Assembly: GCA_028534125.1 (NCBI GenBank)
Contig: CM052816.1
Coordinates: 74,464,001 to 74,528,000 of the forward strand
Direction of reading: 5' to 3'
Origin: Lama glama
Lineage: Eukaryota
DNA: 64,000 nucleotides
Translations under genes and position numbers: made by a program
In this document: in pieces, positions 1,539 through 53,350 of the stretch
Layout: each line of letters opens with the position of its first letter
Numbering within the stretch: position 1 is the stretch's first letter
Notes under the pieces: generated by a model
The model's database searches: none
Told to the model about the DNA's origin: nothing
What the model saw: only the letters and a program-made list of their open reading frames with translations

Positions 1539-1668
1539 CTTCTAATATAGAACAGCTGTATGGATCCTGGGCTCTGTAAACCATGATGAACCCCATTTGT
1601 CCAGTGGCATGAAAAAGTCTCTAGTTCAGGTGAACGGCACTTGGTGAATTTAGGCTTCCCGGAAGAAT
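1539..1668 (-). CDS. GHR: Growth hormone receptor coding exon 4 (extracellular domain, first FNIII subdomain with the C56-C66 pair, human precursor numbering)
   Basis: Minus-strand translation (N)[42 protein letters not shown](R) matches GHR. Pyrimidine tract plus ttctgcAG acceptor (1669-1670) and AG|GTACAG donor (1537-1538). The 130-nt length fits GHR exon 4. Confidence 0.98.
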
Positions 1669-3641
1669 CTGCAGAATAAAAAGAAAAGGCTAGGCATGAA
1701 ATCAGGAGGGTAACGGATGGTCCCAATGAAACAGGTACGTAAAGAGATAAAGAAGAACCACCTCTTTTTTCCTGGGTCACAGCTTCAGAGCTGCTGTTTG
1801 CCAGTTATTTCCCTGTCAGCCTTTGACTGCAGGGACAAACATTTTGTTTTTATACCTTCCATGATTTCTTAGGGCCTGTTTAAGAAATCAGGGCTAGAAA
1901 TGAGGGTTTGGGTTCAGGCAGTGTTTTGTTTTTGGAGGGTGACCCCTGGAACTGGAAGTGAGGGAGACGGAGAGAAGGATGGGGAGGGGAGAACAGTGAA
2001 CAGAGTGTGTGCTATTCAGCTGGGGCCCAACCCCACAGAGGTCCCTCCTGTAAGCTGTGAAGAGTGTGTCTTCCCAGTGTCCTCGACCAGGATGGGAGGC
2101 CAGGGTGGTTAGCCACCAACTCCCAACACCCACTGGTTGAGGGCTGCCCTGGAGGTGTTCATGCCCATGAACTTCTAGGCTGCACGTACATATGAGCTGA
2201 GGGACCTCGCCTGACTTCTGAGACCCTGAGCAGGCACCTGATGCTGGCAACTGCCCATCACGGATGGCTACATTGGCATCAGGCGGCCCAAAGGGATGTG
2301 GCATGGGGACCACAGCATCCCTGACAGGGCCTTTTCTCTTTTTACAGATTTTTGATAAAAAGTCATGTACTTTTGCATTCTTTTAAAAGGTCCATCTGGC
2401 AAATTTATTAAATAGATACCTACTTTAAACAACGTATGCATATATGTGTACCCATTCCAATCTGGGAGGCGGAGGAAGCCTTCTAGTTGTAAGGATGTTA
2501 GCCAAACCCCTCTGCATGTATGAAATCCGCAGCTCTGAATGTGCAGCAGACACATCTGAGGCAAAGCCTATTTGTGTGTGTCAGTTTTCTTTGTTATTCT
2601 GACTTCCACGGTCATTTTGGAGATGGTGGTTGGTGTTTACAACCCCCTCTGAGAGCACTGAAGCACAGTAGCCTGTGTGATCTATTATAAATGAGAAACG
2701 TGTGTGTTCTGCTGGGCAAGCACCTATGATACAGCAGAGTTCCTGGAAAAGTTCCTTCTCCCATCAGCTGAAGCACTGGAAATGCTATTTTTAGATCCTT
2801 CCAGAAAATCAGTGCTAAATAAATATTTAAACCGCAACTAACCTGCTTTAATGCCTGCAGGGTTGAGGAAAGTACTGCCCATTCTGACTGTTCTGCACAG
2901 AATGCAAGAAGAGGAAATGCACTGGATTTCAAATGGAGAGCTTTGCGTTCTGGTTCTGGCTCTGATACTACATAGCCTTGAACTTCTCAAGTCATTTGTC
3001 AGTTTCCTCAACAGAGAGGCAGGAATAGATGAGGTCCAAGGTACTTTACAAACTTCACTTTTACAATTAAGTGACATATACAATCATTAATAACAATGTG
3101 CAGAACGAAAACAATTTTGGTTTGAGCTGAAACAGCCAGAGGACACCAAGTGCAAACATCATTTGGGTTCCTATACTCCCTGTGCAGTAAGTCTGCCACG
3201 TCATGGCAAGAATAATGAACCCGACCCAAAAACTTGAAACATGAAGGGGGAAAAATACTTTGCTAGCTGGAGGAAAAAATCTTAAAAAAAGAATTGATTT
3301 AAAACACATGTTGCTTGCTTAAACTTACTATTCTTGTTTATTCTGTTTCCTTTTAACTCCAGATGTATAGAAAGCCTCACATTATTTTCCATTTTAAATA
3401 AGAAATAGGAAATTGATGGTTGTTGTGCTAACGTGACAAAGCGCCCACAGAGGAACCCTGATGCCATGATGCAGACGCAGCGCAGCGCAGCAAAGCTACT
3501 TTTTCCTTTGTCTCTTTTATATCTGTCTTTCATTGCTTGCCTTCCTTTCGCGACCTGCCTCCTTTCTTTCTCTTTCCTTGCACCCTCCTTCTTTCCTTCC
3601 TTCTTTCTTCCTGTTATGGCTGGTTCTGTGTGGTTAGGTGC

Positions 3642-4080
3642 TGTAGCAGACAGCCTCTCAGATGGTCGCAAGGATCCCTGCCCCCTGTTATCCACAAACT
3701 TTCCTTCCCTTGAGTAACTTGTCTCAAACCTATGGAATATGACAGCATTGAGGGGAATGTCACACCTGTGATTAGATTACAAAAGACTGACTTCTGTCTT
3801 GCTAGCGGACTTAGTTTCTTGCTGGATTTGCTGAAGCAAGCTGCCATGTTGGTGAGAACCACATGGCAAAGAACTGAGGGTGGCCTCTGGTCCACAACCA
3901 GCAAGAAGATGAGGCCTTCAGTCTAATGACTGAGAACTGAAAGAACTAAATCCTGGAAAACAACCACATGGTGAGCACAAAAGCTGACCCTTCCCCAGTC
4001 CAGACTTCAGATGGGACCATGGTCCTAGCTGGCACTGTGATTGCAGCCTTGTGAGAGAATCTGAAACAGAGGACCCGGCT
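3642..4080 (+). mobile_element. MaLR LTR (MLT1E/F-like), 3'-truncated
   Basis: Starts tgtagcagacagcctctcagatgg; contains ccacatggcaaagaactgagggtggcctct and gattgcagccttgtgagag. Confidence 0.75.
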
Positions 4081-4185
4081 GATGGGTTAATTTGGAGGAA
4101 GGATAGGAAACAATATTAACTATATAAATATGTGAATGCTGTTGACATATAATAAGCAAACTCTGTTTAAGAAAGACATAAACCA

Positions 4186-4591
4186 ATAGATAAAGATTAT
4201 ACTGTATAGCACAGGGAAATATACACAAGATCTTATGGTAGCTCACAGAGAAAAGAATGTGACAACGAATATATATATGTTCATGTATAACTGAAAAATT
4301 GTGCTCTACACTGGAATTTGACACAACATTGTAAAATGATTATAAATCAATAAAAAATGTTAAAAAAATATAAATGCTCCCAATGGAGAGTCAAATTTTG
4401 ACCGAAAGTGTTGAGTTTAAAAGGCATGATAATACTTGTCAGCAGCGATGTGTGTGATAATTTAAGTAACAAAACAAAAATGTGGTAGTATGAAACTGAG
4501 AAGAATTGACTTTTTGTTATTTTGAATGAGTTGTAGAAGACTACAAGCTAAGAACTGAACAATCAATAAAAATTTAAGAAAGTGAAAAAAA
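4186..4591 (+). mobile_element. 5'-truncated young L1 (4186-4368) plus about 215 nt of 3'-transduced sequence and a second polyA
   Basis: 14-bp TSD AAAGACATAAACCA at 4172-4185 and 4592-4605. The L1 tail closely matches the copies at 6789, 27410 and 51364. AATAAA at 4565-4570. Confidence 0.88.
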
Positions 4592-6788
4592 AAAGACATA
4601 AACCACTTTTCTTAGCAAATGGAATATGTCAAAATGTTGGTGGGGAAGTGGGTAACTCATTTTTTGGAGGAAGAAGAACTGTAGTATAGCTGGCTGCTTC
4701 TCTCCTTCTCACTCACCTCCCCTTTGGCAAATACCACTATGGCCAAAGACATCCAACATTCCTTAAGCCCAGCTCCTTAGAGTCATCCTGAGGTTTTCCA
4801 AGTCTGAGAGGTACTAGCCTAACTTTAAAATGAACACCCCTCTAGAATGTCTGAAAATCCCAGTAGAAATTTGTTTTGTATTTCACTATGAAGACAGCAA
4901 ATGGTTACCATACACTCTCAGATCCTCTCTGACGAGCCGCACACACATAGTCATTTCTAAGCTAGAAATGCATCTGGCTGTCTTGTCATTTTTTTTTTTT
5001 TAGCCTAAACCTATAGACAGTGTAGTTCACCACTCATTTATAGCATCTTTTAAAAGAATGTTGCAATTGACAAGAGAAACCACCTTTGGCCCTAAATTAA
5101 TTGTCACTAAGAGAAACTCAAGTGGTCCTGCATTCTGAAGAAATGTTACTATTAACACTGATCAGCATTCAAAAATCTTGACAATAGATTTGGGATTCAT
5201 CTTTATTCTCTTTGGAGCCTTCATTTTAAAAATGAGGATTCTGACTTGCGGCCACATGTTAATTTTAGTTATTATCACCATGTTAGATGCAGCATGTTAA
5301 ATATTACATCACGTTGAATACTTTACATATATAATCACCTTTAATACTGACAACAGCTCTAGAGGTGGGTATCATTTCCAGTTGGAAATGGATGAAACTG
5401 GAGTTTAGAGATGTTAAACGAGTTGTCCGTGTTGGGATTAATACACAAATCTGTGTGATTTCATCTCAACTCTTAGCACTAGCAAAAAATAGTAGCTTTT
5501 ATGTTAGACAAGTCTCTCTTGCTTCTCAAAAAATTCTCAGACAAGCTCAGATGGGTTCTTAATTCAACTTTCACCTATCAGTAGCCTGGTGAGCCCTAAG
5601 AGTGGCATTTCCTAACTGACTGCACATTGGAATCAACTGAGGAGCTTTACAAAACACCGATGGCTTCCTGCTTCGCTGCCCAGTGGCTCTCCCCTTGGAG
5701 GAAGATGACCTCCCCAGGCTGGACACAGAGAGCGGACGTCAAGCAGCTGTCCTGAATAGTCGTTTGCCTTCTTTCACCAGACGTGCTTTTCTACCCTCAA
5801 CTCATGATGGAGCAGAAACAAAAACCCAATGAAATCACATACAAATTCCCAATGTGTGCTTGGGGGTTTGGGACTAGAAGAGAAGGAGGAAGAGGAACAA
5901 CTGAAGTGGGAAGGGAAGGCTGGAAGGAGTCTTCGAAGGGAAAGGAGAACCTTCTTCTGAGAGCGCCAGTTTGGGGAGGGGAAGGCACTCAGCCACCACC
6001 TGACCTTAAGTGTACATTCTCCACCACGCCCTGTCGTGTGGACCGTCTGCTGTCAACGATCCTGGACACTTGTCATCACCCTTGAACAGAGGCTGGGGAC
6101 TTACTACCTTGTGATGAGACAGCCTGGCTCTCTGACAAAAGCATAACTGAACACAACCAGTTGAGAATTTCCTTTTCAGCTGGGCAGCATAAACAAACAA
6201 TAAGGAAAGGAAATAAAACAACAGTCCTTAATATGGTTAAAAATTAAACCTCATAAGACATACTAAAGAAAACAATTGTACAGATAAGTGAACTTCATAA
6301 AGAAATAAATGGATTAACCTAGGTGGCTGAACTGTATTTGGAAAGTGTTACCTCCTATTTTTTTGTAAAGGAAGTTCAGCCTACACATTTACTTGGGCTT
6401 CCTGGGGACAAGGGTCTGTACTGAGGGGCACTGAGTTTTGCATGGTGCTTGTAAACATTCAGGTTGTGGGGAGAGAACCCCTTGCCCAGCTTGCTGCAGT
6501 CCTCCCTTCTGAAGCTCTGCTTTGAGGCCACGTATCCTTCTCCAAAGCACACTTGTTTCCAAAGCACTCTTTCATTTGAAAAGCTTCAGGAAAACAGGGA
6601 TTCCTCAACTTAGAGCATCTAACACCCCCTTTCACTAAAGGTCTTGTCCTTGATGGATGCTGGCCTGTCAAAATACAGCAAAAAAAAAAAATCTGTAAGT
6701 GTTCTGGCTGATCACTATTGGCAAAAGTAACTGAACTGCCTTATAGATAATATAATGTCAAAGAGCACATTAAAAAAAAATCTGGTAG

Positions 6789-8929: not shown

Positions 8930-9600
8930 AAAATACAAAACAATAGGATGTGGAATAATTGGAACCTCTGTCAGGAATGTAAACTGGTATAGCCACTGGA
9001 GAAAAACAGCTTAGAAGTGCCGCCAAAGTTAAACACAGTTACCATATGACCCAGTGATCCTGCTCCTAGGTTTGTACCCAAGAGAACTGAGAACACTTGT
9101 TCATGCAAAATCTTGTACAAGTATGTTCATAGCTGCATTATTCATAATAATAAAAAGGTAGAAAAACCCAAGCATTCATCAACTGATGAGTGAATAAACA
9201 AAATGTGGTACAATCATATAATAGAATCTTACTCGGCCATAAAAAGAAATAAGATACTGATATAAGCTACAACATGGATGAACCTCAAAAACGTTTTGCT
9301 AAGTGAAAAGAGCCAGTGAAATATGGGACACAAAGGGTCCCTTATTGCATTACTCCCTTGAAATAAATTCCAGAACAGGCAAATCCATAGAGACAGGAAA
9401 TAGATTAGTAGTTGCCAGGGAATGAGAGGAAGGGAAATTGGGAGCCAATAGTCATGGGTGCAGGGTTTCATGTAGAAGTGATGGAAATCTTCTAGAATTA
9501 GACAGCAGTGATGGTTGCACAACATTGTGAATATATTAAAAACTACTTTAAAATGGTTAAAATGGCAAATTTTATATTATGTGAATTTTATCACAGTAAG
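8930..9600 (+). mobile_element. Old L1M (L1MB-like) 3' fragment
   Basis: gttaccatatgacccag, atgttcatagctgcattattcataata, acatggatgaacctcaaaaac, gtgatggttgcacaacattgtgaat. Confidence 0.85.
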
Positions 9601-24814: not shown

Positions 24815-24919
24815 GGAAAAGCAATATGAATATATGTATGTATATGCAAGACTGGGACGTTGTGCTGTACACCAGAAATTGATACATTGTAATTGACTGT
24901 ATTTCAATAAAAAAAAAAA
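24815..24919 (+). mobile_element. L1 3' terminal fragment with polyA running into the gap
   Basis: tgtgctgtacaccagaaattgatacattgtaattgactgtatttcaataaaaaa. Confidence 0.85.
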
Positions 24920-25419
24920 NNNNNNNNNNNNNNNNNNNNNNNNNNNNNNNNNNNNNNNNNNNNNNNNNNNNNNNNNNNNNNNNNNNNNNNNNNNNNNNNN
25001 NNNNNNNNNNNNNNNNNNNNNNNNNNNNNNNNNNNNNNNNNNNNNNNNNNNNNNNNNNNNNNNNNNNNNNNNNNNNNNNNNNNNNNNNNNNNNNNNNNNN
25101 NNNNNNNNNNNNNNNNNNNNNNNNNNNNNNNNNNNNNNNNNNNNNNNNNNNNNNNNNNNNNNNNNNNNNNNNNNNNNNNNNNNNNNNNNNNNNNNNNNNN
25201 NNNNNNNNNNNNNNNNNNNNNNNNNNNNNNNNNNNNNNNNNNNNNNNNNNNNNNNNNNNNNNNNNNNNNNNNNNNNNNNNNNNNNNNNNNNNNNNNNNNN
25301 NNNNNNNNNNNNNNNNNNNNNNNNNNNNNNNNNNNNNNNNNNNNNNNNNNNNNNNNNNNNNNNNNNNNNNNNNNNNNNNNNNNNNNNNNNNNNNNNNNNN
25401 NNNNNNNNNNNNNNNNNNN
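24920..25419. other. Assembly gap (exactly 500 N)
   Basis: Run of n characters. Confidence 1.
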
Positions 25420-25470
25420 TGTCTTGGCTACTGTAAATAGTGCTTCTATGAACACTGGGGGGCGTGTACA
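25420..25470 (-). mobile_element. L1 ORF2 3' fragment emerging from the gap
   Basis: The reverse complement encodes MFIEALFTVAKT, compare MFIAALFTIAKT in the 51364 L1. Confidence 0.8.
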
Positions 25471-31165: not shown

Positions 31166-31335
31166 GGGGGGAGGGTATAGCTCAGTGGTTAGAGCACACG
31201 CTTAGCATGCATGAGGGGCCTGGGGTCAATCCCCAGTACCATTAAAATAAATAAATAAACCTAATTACTTCCCCCACAAAACAAAAACACCCCCCGCCAA
31301 AACCCCACAAACAAAATAAATTTAATATTTTTAAA
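31166..31335 (+). mobile_element. tRNA-Ala-derived camelid SINE (Vic-1 type)
   Basis: gggtatagctcagtggttagagc (A box)...gggtcaatccccagtacc (B box), then cctaattacttccccc and an A-rich tail. TSD aagaca(t/c)atc at 31154-31163 and 31336-31345. Confidence 0.88.
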
Positions 31336-39526: not shown

Positions 39527-39592
39527 TTGTCTCTAGGCCTGGATTAACTCTCTGCAGACTCTGGGATCCTCTGACAAGGAGAGCTGGTGTGG
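39527..39592 (-). CDS. GHR: Growth hormone receptor coding exon 3 (66 nt, phase 1-1)
   Basis: Not in the ORF track. Reads cttctctttctgtttcAG|CCACACCAGCT...CTAGAGACAA|GTAAGA and encodes (A)TPALLVRGSQSLQRVNPGLET(N). It splices in frame to exon 4 (A+AT = Asn, giving an N-S-S sequon). Confidence 0.97.
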
Positions 39593-49840: not shown

Positions 49841-49997
49841 TTTTTTTTTTATTTCTTTTTTGGGGGAGGAGGTAATTAGGTTTGTTTGTTTGTTTGTTTG
49901 TTTATTTATTGCTATTTTTGATGGAGATACTGGGGATTGAACCCAGGACCTTGTGCATGCTAAGCACATACTCTGCCACTGAGCTGTGACCTCCCCC
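49841..49997 (-). mobile_element. tRNA-Ala-derived camelid SINE (Vic-1 type) with internal (TTTG)n
   Basis: Reverse complement: gggggaggtcacagctcagtggcagagtatgtgcttagcatgcacaaggtcctgggttcaatccccagtatctcca...cctaattacctcc. TSD ccagttt(t/c)tttt at about 49836 and 49999. Confidence 0.9.
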
Positions 49998-51171: not shown

Positions 51172-52320
51172 TTGTGTAGTAAGCACAGCTGGGTGCCTGC
51201 CTCCTCCCTCTTTCTCAAAAGCATCTTGATTTTATTCAGGGAGCCACCCCTTCCCAAGCAGCTCAGGTGCCTCAAGGGAAGCGGATTCAAGCCCAGATCC
51301 ACGAGCAGATATAACAGGATAGAGGGTTATTTCCATCCTCTTCTGAAGTTCAAGAAAGATGTGTAGGAATAGACTTACCGTATGACCCAGGAATCCCACT
51401 CCTGGGCTTGTATCCAGAAGGAACCCTACTTCAGGATGACACCTGCACCCCAATGTTCATAGCAGCACTATTTACAATAGCCAAGACAGGGAAACAGCCT
51501 AAATGTCCATCAACAGATGACTGGATAAAGAAGCTGTGGTATATTTATACAATGGAATACTACTCAGCCATAAAAACTGACAACATAACACCATTTGCAG
51601 CAACATGGATGCTCCTGGAGAATGTCATACTAAGTGAAGTAAGCCAGAAAGGGAAAGAAAATACCATATGAGATCGCTCATAGCAGAATCTAAAAAACAA
51701 AAACACAAACAACAACAACAACAAAAAAAAGCATAAATACAAAACAAATAGACTCATAGACATAGAATACAAACTTGTGGTTGCCAAGGGGGTGGAGGGT
51801 GGGAAGGGATAGATGGGATTTCAAAATTGTAGAAAAGATAAACAAGATTATACTGTATAACACAGGGAAATATACACAAAATCTTATGGTAGCTCACAGA
51901 GAAAAAAATGTGACAATGAATATATATATGTTCATGTATAACTGAAAAAATGTGCTGAACACTGGAATTTGACACATTATAAAATGATTATAAATCAATA
52001 AAGTTTAAAAAAATAAAGACCAAAAAAAAAAAAAAAGGAAAGAAGATGTGGTCCAAGGGAATCTTACAGGGGGGGTTCTAGAAAATTCAAGGGAAAAAAA
52101 AAGCTACAGAACTATATAGTCTCCTTGCTTTTCCTATTTCACCCTGAACCTGAAGATGAAGCTGATACAACGAAGAGGCCAAGACAACTTTTGGAAAATG
52201 AATTTGGAGCCAATGGATTGAGTAAACCCAAAGCCTGCTCCACTTCAGTATTTCTAATTATATGAATGATGTTTCTAATTACTTAAGTCAGTTTGAATTA
52301 AGCTTCCTGTCTCTTGCTCC
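51172..52320 (+). mobile_element. Degraded MaLR LTR (MLT1J/K-like) split by an L1
   Basis: 3' part gagccaatggattgagtaaacccaaagcctgc...ttaagtcagtttgaattaagcttcctgtctcttgc resembles old MLT1 ends. Confidence 0.55.
51364..52038 (+). mobile_element. Young 5'-truncated L1 (ORF2 end plus 3'UTR)
   Basis: The ORF at 51408 encodes DTCTPMFIAALFTIAK...WIKKLWYIYTMEYYSAIK. TSD core AAGATGTG at 51356-51363 and 52043-52050; polyA tail. Confidence 0.95.
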
Positions 52321-52993: not shown

Positions 52994-53350
52994 AGAGAGG
53001 TGACAAGATGGTGGAGTAGAGAGACTTACAGCTCGCCCTCTCCCACAAATACACCAAGAAGTACATCTACAAACCCACTGAATCACACAGAACACCTACT
53101 GAACTCTGGCAGAGTGTCTCTTACTTCAACATGCAGGAGAATTCTCACAAAATCCGGTAACAACAAATTCATACTGCATAGCACAGGGAACTATATTCAA
53201 TATCTTGCAGTAACTTACAGTGAAAAAGAATATGTAAACGAATATATGTATGTTCATGTATGACTGAAGCATTGTGTTGTACACCAGAAATTGACACAAC
53301 ATTGTAAACTGACTACACTTCAATAAAAAATATATATATACAAAAAAAAA
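52994..53350 (+). mobile_element. Bipartite L1: about 165 nt of 5'UTR joined to about 190 nt of 3'UTR
   Basis: gacaagatggtggagtag...cccacaaatacacc...acatctac...cagaacacctactgaactctggcaga is an L1 5' end; it is followed by aacaaattcatactgcatagcacagggaactatattc...cttcaataaaaaa. Confidence 0.8.

What the first reader, a model, noticed from the sequence alone, without database searches (positions are those of the whole stretch)
4172..4605. L1-mediated 3' transduction: about 215 nt of foreign DNA carried into GHR intron 3
Seen, in order: ttt|aag endonuclease-like site; TSD AAAGACATAAACCA (4172-4185); about 180 nt of young L1 3' end with its own AATAAA and A tract (to 4368); about 215 nt of non-L1 sequence (4369-4584); a second AATAAA (4565-4570) 14 nt before a second A tract; the identical TSD (4592-4605). 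The other three copies of this L1 end right after the first A tract. Established: read-through of the weak L1 polyA signal mobilises 3' flanks. Inference: the tag identifies the source L1 locus and possibly sibling insertions.
Basis: partly seen in the sequence, partly recalled or inferred. Interest (0 to 1): 0.72.

Follow-up and report, generated by a model that had tools for sequence, protein, structure and literature searches.

The report
Old LINE-1 fragment with transduced tail
A short LINE-1 retrotransposon fragment in an intron of the growth hormone receptor gene sits with 216 bases of unrelated DNA inside one 14-base duplication, likely an old and ordinary case of a LINE-1 copying its neighbouring DNA along with itself, whose source copy was not found.

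Summary
One exact 14-nt repeat (4172-4185, 4592-4605; the only two copies in the window) encloses 183 nt of L1 3' end, an A7 tract, 216 nt of non-L1 DNA, a second AATAAA and a second A tract. It lies antisense in GHR intron 3, 2.5 kb from exon 4. This is the textbook layout of a partnered L1 3' transduction, reported for about 25% of human L1 insertions. Corrections: the TTT|AAG site lies 3 nt left of the stated duplication; one of the three sister copies has a second A tract; the insertion is not recent (L1 copies differ 5-9%, and all 4 runs laid, up to about 2% divergent, show the filled site). New detail: the second poly(A) signal looks like a ~15-nt L1 terminus, followed by 10 nt matching the target site, which leaves a template-switch or repair-patch origin open. 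Known mechanism, no sign of function; low interest.

The parts
4166..4171 (+). L1 endonuclease-type site TTT|AAG (cut 4168/4169), 3 nt left of the exact duplication
   Evidence: sequence; TT/AAAA motif as stated in PMC13174262
4172..4185 (+). 5' copy of the target-site duplication (14 nt exact; 17 nt from 4169 with one mismatch); A4185 also fits the L1 sequence (1-nt overlap)
4186..4368 (+). 5'-truncated L1 3' end, 183 nt, with a 3-nt deletion near its 5' junction, own AATAAA 4349-4354 and A7 4362-4368
   Evidence: BLAST 91-93% to copies at 7.5, 27.4, 51.8 kb; alignment; sister copies encode L1 ORF2p C-terminus, E 5.6e-36 and 2.2e-21; summed depth about 1e6 in laid runs
4369..4560 (+). Body of the non-L1 tag, AT-rich; one contig per run where covered
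   Evidence: no better than shuffles against L1 3' ends, 478 of 500 shuffles score as high; best other window hit E 0.03; no credible Rfam or Pfam match; flat single-contig depth at 4403-4526
4561..4575 (+). Second poly(A) signal (AATAAA 4565-4570) in a ~15-nt stretch that resembles the L1 terminus; weakly flanked by its own degenerate direct repeat (4549-4559 / 4575-4586)
   Evidence: 12-nt exact match to 4345-4356; 0 of 108 other AATAAA sites share the 4 upstream nt; flanking repeat matched or beaten by 1 of 113 sites and 423 of 10000 shuffles
4573..4582 (+). TTTAAGAAAG, identical to 4166-4175 across the endonuclease site
   Evidence: 17 of 5000 shuffles and 1 of 114 real AATAAA contexts reach 10 nt
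4585..4591 (+). Terminal A tract outside the duplication (7 nt; 10 with the first three A of the repeat), 14 nt after the second AATAAA
4592..4605 (+). 3' copy of the target-site duplication
   Evidence: bridged to tag and right flank by contigs of X7, X16, X18, X19
1539..1668 (-). Context: GHR exon 4 (130 nt), 2504 nt from the insertion
   Evidence: phmmer to solved GHR, E 2.9e-19; AG/GT ends
39527..39592 (-). Context: GHR exon 3 (66 nt); the insertion is antisense in the intron between exons 3 and 4
   Evidence: recalled peptide motif plus AG/GT ends; not confirmed by a database search

Best explanation
A 406-nt insert made of an L1 3' end, its short A tract, 216 nt of non-L1 DNA and a second poly(A) signal and tail sits inside one target-site duplication in GHR intron 3, and is likely a partnered L1 3' transduction. 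Inferred steps: transcription of a source L1 ran through its own AATAAA and about 200 nt of flank, ended 14 nt after the next AATAAA (probably supplied by a ~15-nt L1 stub in that flank), was polyadenylated, and was copied into a TTT|AAG site by target-primed reverse transcription that stopped 183 nt into the L1. The event is older than the split of lineages about 2% apart, is antisense and deep-intronic, and is most likely neutral.
For: Shown: order and orientation of all parts; exact 14-nt duplication around the whole and none around the L1 alone; L1 identity; tag body not L1; 14-nt signal-to-tail spacing inside the 10-30 nt range given for 274 of 349 human transduction ends (PMC13009371, passages); insert length close to the 445-bp median of somatic partnered transductions there; filled site in 4 of 4 runs, X16 differing at 15 of 842 letters, so it is not an assembly artefact. 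No AATAAA/ATTAAA, acceptor-like or donor-like motif on the GHR sense strand by my three simple patterns.
Against: The tag's native locus should persist even if the source L1 was lost (17 of 18 dog transductions mapped elsewhere, PMC7980453), yet at 80% likeness the whole DNA run X7 gave one contig over 4403-4526. No empty allele in 4 of 4 runs. The match of 4573-4582 to the target site (about 0.3-1% by chance) is left as a coincidence. The L1-tag junction was covered by contigs with only 23-25 letters on the L1 side, below the tool's 31-letter bridging rule.
Confidence: 0.75

Rival explanations
1. L1-tag-L1 sandwich: the right end is a true L1 terminus. Reverse transcription began on one L1 RNA, copied about 15-20 nt and switched to a read-through RNA (flank plus L1 3' end); or a simple L1 insertion was later patched at a break with DNA from another L1 and its flank. 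The tag is still the flank of another L1, but it did not arrive by plain read-through.
For: 4561-4575 resembles the L1 terminus more than any of 107 non-L1 AATAAA sites; it is followed by AAGAAAG, the first 7 nt of the 17-nt reading of the duplication, or by a 16-nt A-rich tail; two sister copies also have only 0-3 A between terminus and duplication. Template switching is a proposed route to L1 chimeras (PMC13174262); repair patches from distant loci are described (PMC5110952 abstract).
Against: The likeness is confined to about 15-22 nt; the stub has a weak duplication of its own, which fits a stub already present in the donor flank; the 17-nt reading needs a further 13-nt insertion present in all 4 runs; more events are needed than in the best explanation.
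Confidence: 0.13
2. Truncated retrocopy of a cellular transcript whose 3' end held an L1 fragment and the tag (host promoter, mobilised in trans), not of an L1-promoted RNA.
For: Would give the same anatomy; a conserved parent could be hidden by the human-likeness filter.
Against: Only 5 RNA or RNA-guessed runs held the tag; in the 3 laid, the tag contig continued into the GHR-intron right flank, not into another gene. No coding or RNA-family match.
Confidence: 0.06
3. The tag is native intron DNA; an L1 fragment inserted left of it without its own duplication, and the 14-nt repeat is chance or a locally templated piece at the L1 5' junction.
For: Explains why the tag looks single copy. Not excluded by any outgroup sequence; none could be read.
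Against: Needs an exact 14-nt repeat at both expected positions (p about 1e-5 to 4e-4), plus AATAAA and an A tract at the right spacing, plus an L1 without a duplication where two sister copies have 15-nt ones.
Confidence: 0.05
4. The tag is the acquired tail of an L1 subfamily or of a serial transduction lineage with many copies.
For: None found; considered because such families exist.
Against: Depth falls from about 1e6 over the L1 part to one contig (7.5 in X7, 8.0 in X16) over 4403-4526.
Confidence: 0.01

Closest known systems
Partnered L1 3' transduction (human; PMC13009371, passages read)
   Same: L1 3' end followed by unique flank, poly(A) signal 10-30 nt before the tail, one duplication around all, about 400 nt long.
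   Different: Here germline and old, in a non-primate mammal; source not found; second signal sits in an L1-terminus-like stub.
Dog LINE-1_Cf 3' transductions, including 'parentless' ones (PMC7980453, passages read)
   Same: Germline transduction in a non-primate mammal, with no source L1 in view.
   Different: Dog cases are dimorphic and 17 of 18 tags mapped elsewhere; this one was present in 4 of 4 runs and its tag did not map elsewhere in them.
Class 1 and class 2 templated sequence insertion polymorphisms (PMC5110952, abstract)
   Same: Class 1 hallmarks (duplication, tail 10-30 nt after a cryptic signal, TTTT/A-type site) are all present.
   Different: This insert carries L1 sequence and showed no polymorphism; class 2 (repair patch) is the rival reading for its inner part only.
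L1 chimeras with small RNAs, Alu or mRNA (PMC13174262, passages read)
   Same: L1 and non-L1 sequence in one duplication.
   Different: The tag matches no Rfam family, and it follows the L1's own A tract, as a genomic flank would.
Intronic retrotransposon insertions in pig GHR (PMC8300111, abstract)
   Same: Retro-insertions in GHR introns.
   Different: Those are polymorphic and one in intron 1 was linked to lower expression; nothing here indicates polymorphism or an effect.

Membership tests
Partnered L1 3' transduction | L1 3' end at the 5' side of the insert, with its own poly(A) signal and residual A tract | tested here: met
Partnered L1 3' transduction | Unique non-L1 sequence directly after the L1 A tract | tested here: met
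Partnered L1 3' transduction | Poly(A) signal 10-30 nt before a terminal A tract | tested here: met
   AATAAA 4565-4570, 14 nt before 4585; range from PMC13009371
Partnered L1 3' transduction | One target-site duplication around L1 plus tag, none around L1 alone | tested here: met
Partnered L1 3' transduction | Endonuclease-type site at the start of the duplication | tested here: inconclusive
   TTT|AAG fits only if the duplication is 17 nt with one mismatch; at the 14-nt boundary the site is AG|AAAG
Partnered L1 3' transduction | Tag has a native locus elsewhere in the genome, downstream of an L1 or of its empty site | tested here: inconclusive
   no second copy at 80% likeness in 4 runs, only 1 of them a whole-genome DNA run; contigs like human DNA are dropped unseen; no genome held
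Partnered L1 3' transduction | Empty pre-insertion allele in a relative or outgroup | tested here: inconclusive
   none of 11 listed joints skips 4186-4605; 4 of 4 metagenome hits were chance 19-24-nt matches
L1 subfamily with an acquired 3' tail | Many copies of the tag behind L1 3' ends | tested here: not met
   single-contig depth over 4403-4526
L1/small-RNA chimera | Non-L1 part is a known RNA | tested here: not met
   best Rfam matches E 2.6 and 9.8, far below gathering scores
Retrocopy of a cellular mRNA 3' end | Tag is the end of a transcript from another locus | tested here: inconclusive
   3 of 5 RNA-type holders laid; each continued into the GHR-intron flank; germline tissues not specifically examined

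The most novel reading that the evidence does not exclude
The insert is an L1-flank-L1 sandwich built in one retrotransposition event by a template switch from an L1 RNA terminus to a read-through RNA, at a site whose 10 nt across the nick match the RNA's own 3' end, so RNA-target pairing would have helped choose the site even though a poly(A) tail was copied.
Probability: 0.1. Interest if true: 0.35.

Novelty: new member of a known kind. Interest (0 to 1): 0.13.

Why it matters
If the best reading is true it matters little: it is one more L1 3' transduction, a class reported at about 25% of human L1 insertions (PMC13009371). Its modest uses are as an old presence/absence marker shared by related lineages and as a pointer to an L1 that was active long ago. 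It is antisense, 2.5 kb from the nearest GHR exon, and nothing suggests an effect on GHR. I did not find a catalogue of camelid transductions (searches; the camelid TE survey PMC8605555 uses 'transduction' once, as a general remark), but one unplaced example does not fill that gap. If the sandwich reading were shown, it would be a small mechanistic example of template switching at an L1 3' end.

Tried and rejected
Own genome: not held, so no genome-wide BLAST of the tag. Earlier scan notes by sequence and by place: 0 look-alikes; by words 0, then 10 findings of which 8 were shown. Tag as structured RNA: rejected. Tag as coding: a 59-codon minus-strand frame and a 27-codon plus-strand frame have 0 Pfam families; the 59-codon frame has no relative in viral contigs (127 pattern hits, 0 confirmed); no phage DNA match. 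Tag as decayed L1 3' UTR: a gappy alignment of its last 80 nt did not beat shuffles (473-478 of 500 local, 192 of 500 end-anchored); the best of 8 tests against other L1 pieces was 7 of 200, not significant after 8 tries. Metagenome scans for host DNA: 0 hits for a tag 26-mer; 4 hits for a right-junction 19-mer, none with flank homology. Missing cover in runs X18 and X19 left of 4473 and the zero-share runs X21-X24 are not taken as evidence of absence. X19's 6 differences come from a contig of depth 2.8 and may include errors. Pfam did not recognise the ORF2 fragments of the sister copies; the solved-structure search did. Szak et al. 2003 (PMC156586) was not held. No supplements were read.

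Full report
Observation. AAAGACATAAACCA stands at 4172-4185 and 4592-4605 and nowhere else in the window on either strand. Between the copies lie 183 nt (4186-4368) that match three other places in the window at 91-93% by BLAST (7505, 27408, 51844), with AATAAA at 4349-4354 and seven A at 4362-4368; then 216 nt (4369-4584) with AATAAA at 4565-4570; then, 14 nt later, an A tract at 4585-4594. A fixed 14-mer recurring within 1 kb has p about 1e-5 at local base composition. Repeats of this length do occur by other causes (20 pairs spaced 60-7000 nt), so the weight lies in the position: directly before the L1 piece and directly after the second tail. No repeat longer than 6 nt encloses the L1 piece alone.

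Setting. A 130-nt exon at 1539-1668 on the minus strand matches solved growth hormone receptor structures (E 2.9e-19). A 66-nt AG..GT exon at 39527-39592 was found with a recalled exon-3 motif. The insert is therefore antisense in the intron between them, 2504 nt from the exon 4 acceptor. On the GHR sense strand my simple patterns found no AATAAA or ATTAAA, no acceptor-like and no donor-like motif in the insert. Two tRNA-headed repeats look like the camel SINE vic-1 as I recall it (PMC3531059 names vic-1 as a simple SINE of camels, one passage), and whole-run contig sets total about 2.0-2.1 billion letters; 'camelid' is an inference.

The L1 part. The longer sister copies carry the C-terminus of L1 ORF2p (E 5.6e-36 and 2.2e-21 against solved ORF2p), so the 183 nt are an L1 3' end. 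The four 3' ends differ pairwise by 5.0-8.6%, and the focal copy differs from the majority letter of the laid L1 contigs at 3 listed places. The TTT|AAG site is at 4168/4169; read from there the duplication is 17 nt with one G/A mismatch in the A tract.

The tag. Its body (4369-4560) is not L1-like: 478 of 500 shuffles align as well to the L1 ends. It has no meaningful match in the window (best E 0.03), Rfam, Pfam, viral contigs or phages. First, AATCAATAAAAA at 4561-4572 equals the L1 terminus at 4345-4356; 0 of 108 other AATAAA sites share the four upstream letters, and the only site with a higher alignment score overlaps an L1 end. This stub has a weak flanking repeat of its own (1 of 113 sites and 423 of 10000 shuffles as good, boundaries chosen by eye). 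Second, TTTAAGAAAG at 4573-4582 equals 4166-4175 across the target site (17 of 5000 shuffles, 1 of 114 real contexts).

Other genomes. No genome is held. A run search with the tag listed 24 runs; 20 hold it in part; 15 hold 0.96 of 24 words and carry four organism labels (A-D); 5 RNA-type runs hold 0.13-0.33. I laid 4 of the 24 on 4000-4900 at 80% likeness. All 4 have a contig that bridges tag, A tract, right duplication and right flank (X7 4535-4900, X16 4344-4689, X18 4473-4762, X19 4476-4700). X16 also bridges left flank, duplication and L1 (4000-4254); X7 does so with 29 letters on the L1 side, just under the tool's 31-letter rule, and the L1-tag junction is covered with 23-25 letters on the L1 side. 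Differences from the window: X7 1 of 796, X16 15 of 842 (1.8%, 95% interval 1.0-2.9%) plus 8 gap letters, X18 3 of 290, X19 6 of 225 at low depth. The insert is thus real and older than the split of lineages about 2% apart; if the host is a camelid, that may be the Old World/New World split (inference from recalled divergence). None of 11 listed joints skips 4186-4605, so no empty allele was seen. Over 4403-4526 the depth equals one contig in X7 (7.53) and X16 (7.98), against about 1e6 over the L1 part: no source locus or sibling at 80% likeness. The tool drops contigs like human DNA unseen and only X7 is a whole-genome DNA run, so this is not proof of absence, but it is the main result against the reading. 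Metagenome scans gave 0 hits and 4 chance hits.

Mechanism. Best (0.75): read-through of a source L1 into about 200 nt of flank, 3' end formation 14 nt after the next AATAAA (probably a short L1 stub in that flank), and target-primed reverse transcription that stopped 183 nt into the L1. Shown: parts, order, duplication, L1 identity, presence in several lineages. Inferred: read-through, the source, the stub's role, neutrality. Rival 1 (0.13): the right end is a true L1 terminus and the tag came by a template switch or a later repair patch; this uses both coincidences above but needs more events. An earlier scan note (e1-8043436) raised the repair-patch idea for another genome; I did not check that case. 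Rival 2 (0.06): retrocopy of a host transcript end; the 3 RNA-type runs laid all continue into this intron's flank. Rival 3 (0.05): native tag with a chance or locally templated repeat; fits the single-copy result but needs several coincidences. Rival 4 (0.01): multi-copy L1 tail; excluded by depth.

Comparison with what is known. About 25% of human L1 insertions carry 3' transductions; partnered ones hold L1 and flank; 274 of 349 ends have a poly(A) signal 10-30 bp upstream; somatic partnered insertions have a median of 445 bp (PMC13009371, passages). In dog, 18 transductions were found among dimorphic L1s and 17 mapped elsewhere without an adjacent L1 (PMC7980453, passages). Template switching and RNA ligation are proposed for L1 chimeras (PMC13174262, passages); repair-patch insertions are class 2 TSIPs (PMC5110952, abstract). 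It works like a partnered 3' transduction and meets four internal defining features; three (site register, native locus, empty allele) are inconclusive; none failed. I saw no report of this insertion or a camelid transduction catalogue in the search listings; PMC8605555 (passages) mentions transduction once in general terms. Supplements were not read.

Verdict. A real, old, probably neutral L1 insertion with a 3' tag: a new member of a well-known kind. Interest 0.13.

Noticed in passing
window 51997-52050: The 51.8-kb L1 copy has A7, then 8 nt that form a second AATAAA, then a second A tract of about 15 nt; only an 8-nt duplication core (51356/52043) is left. A very short read-through or a patterned tail.
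   Followed up: partly
window 31171-31244 (+) and 49922-49993 (-): Two tRNA-headed SINE copies (Rfam tRNA, 46.7 and 41.7 bits) with a shared AT-rich tail; resemble vic-1 as recalled.
   Followed up: partly
window 7894/8664, 19301/20302, 35397/36284, 42281/43620: Four other exact direct repeats of 14-17 nt, 0.8-1.3 kb apart; possible duplications around other inserts or chance.
   Followed up: no
window 24826-25419: An older L1 3' piece ends at a 500-N assembly gap (24920-25419); an L1 piece on the opposite strand follows the gap (25420-25463).
   Followed up: no
window 53162-53331, 205-355, 8991-9316: Older L1 pieces; the 53.2-kb 3' end is 19-23% diverged from the four younger 3' ends.
   Followed up: partly
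window 4381 and 4466 (run X16): The divergent lineage has 5 extra letters after 4381 and 1 after 4466 inside the tag; window letter 4638 differs from all 4 runs laid.
   Followed up: no
window about 3640-4080: Looks like an old LTR remnant (recalled MLT-type) just left of the insertion; not tested.
   Followed up: no
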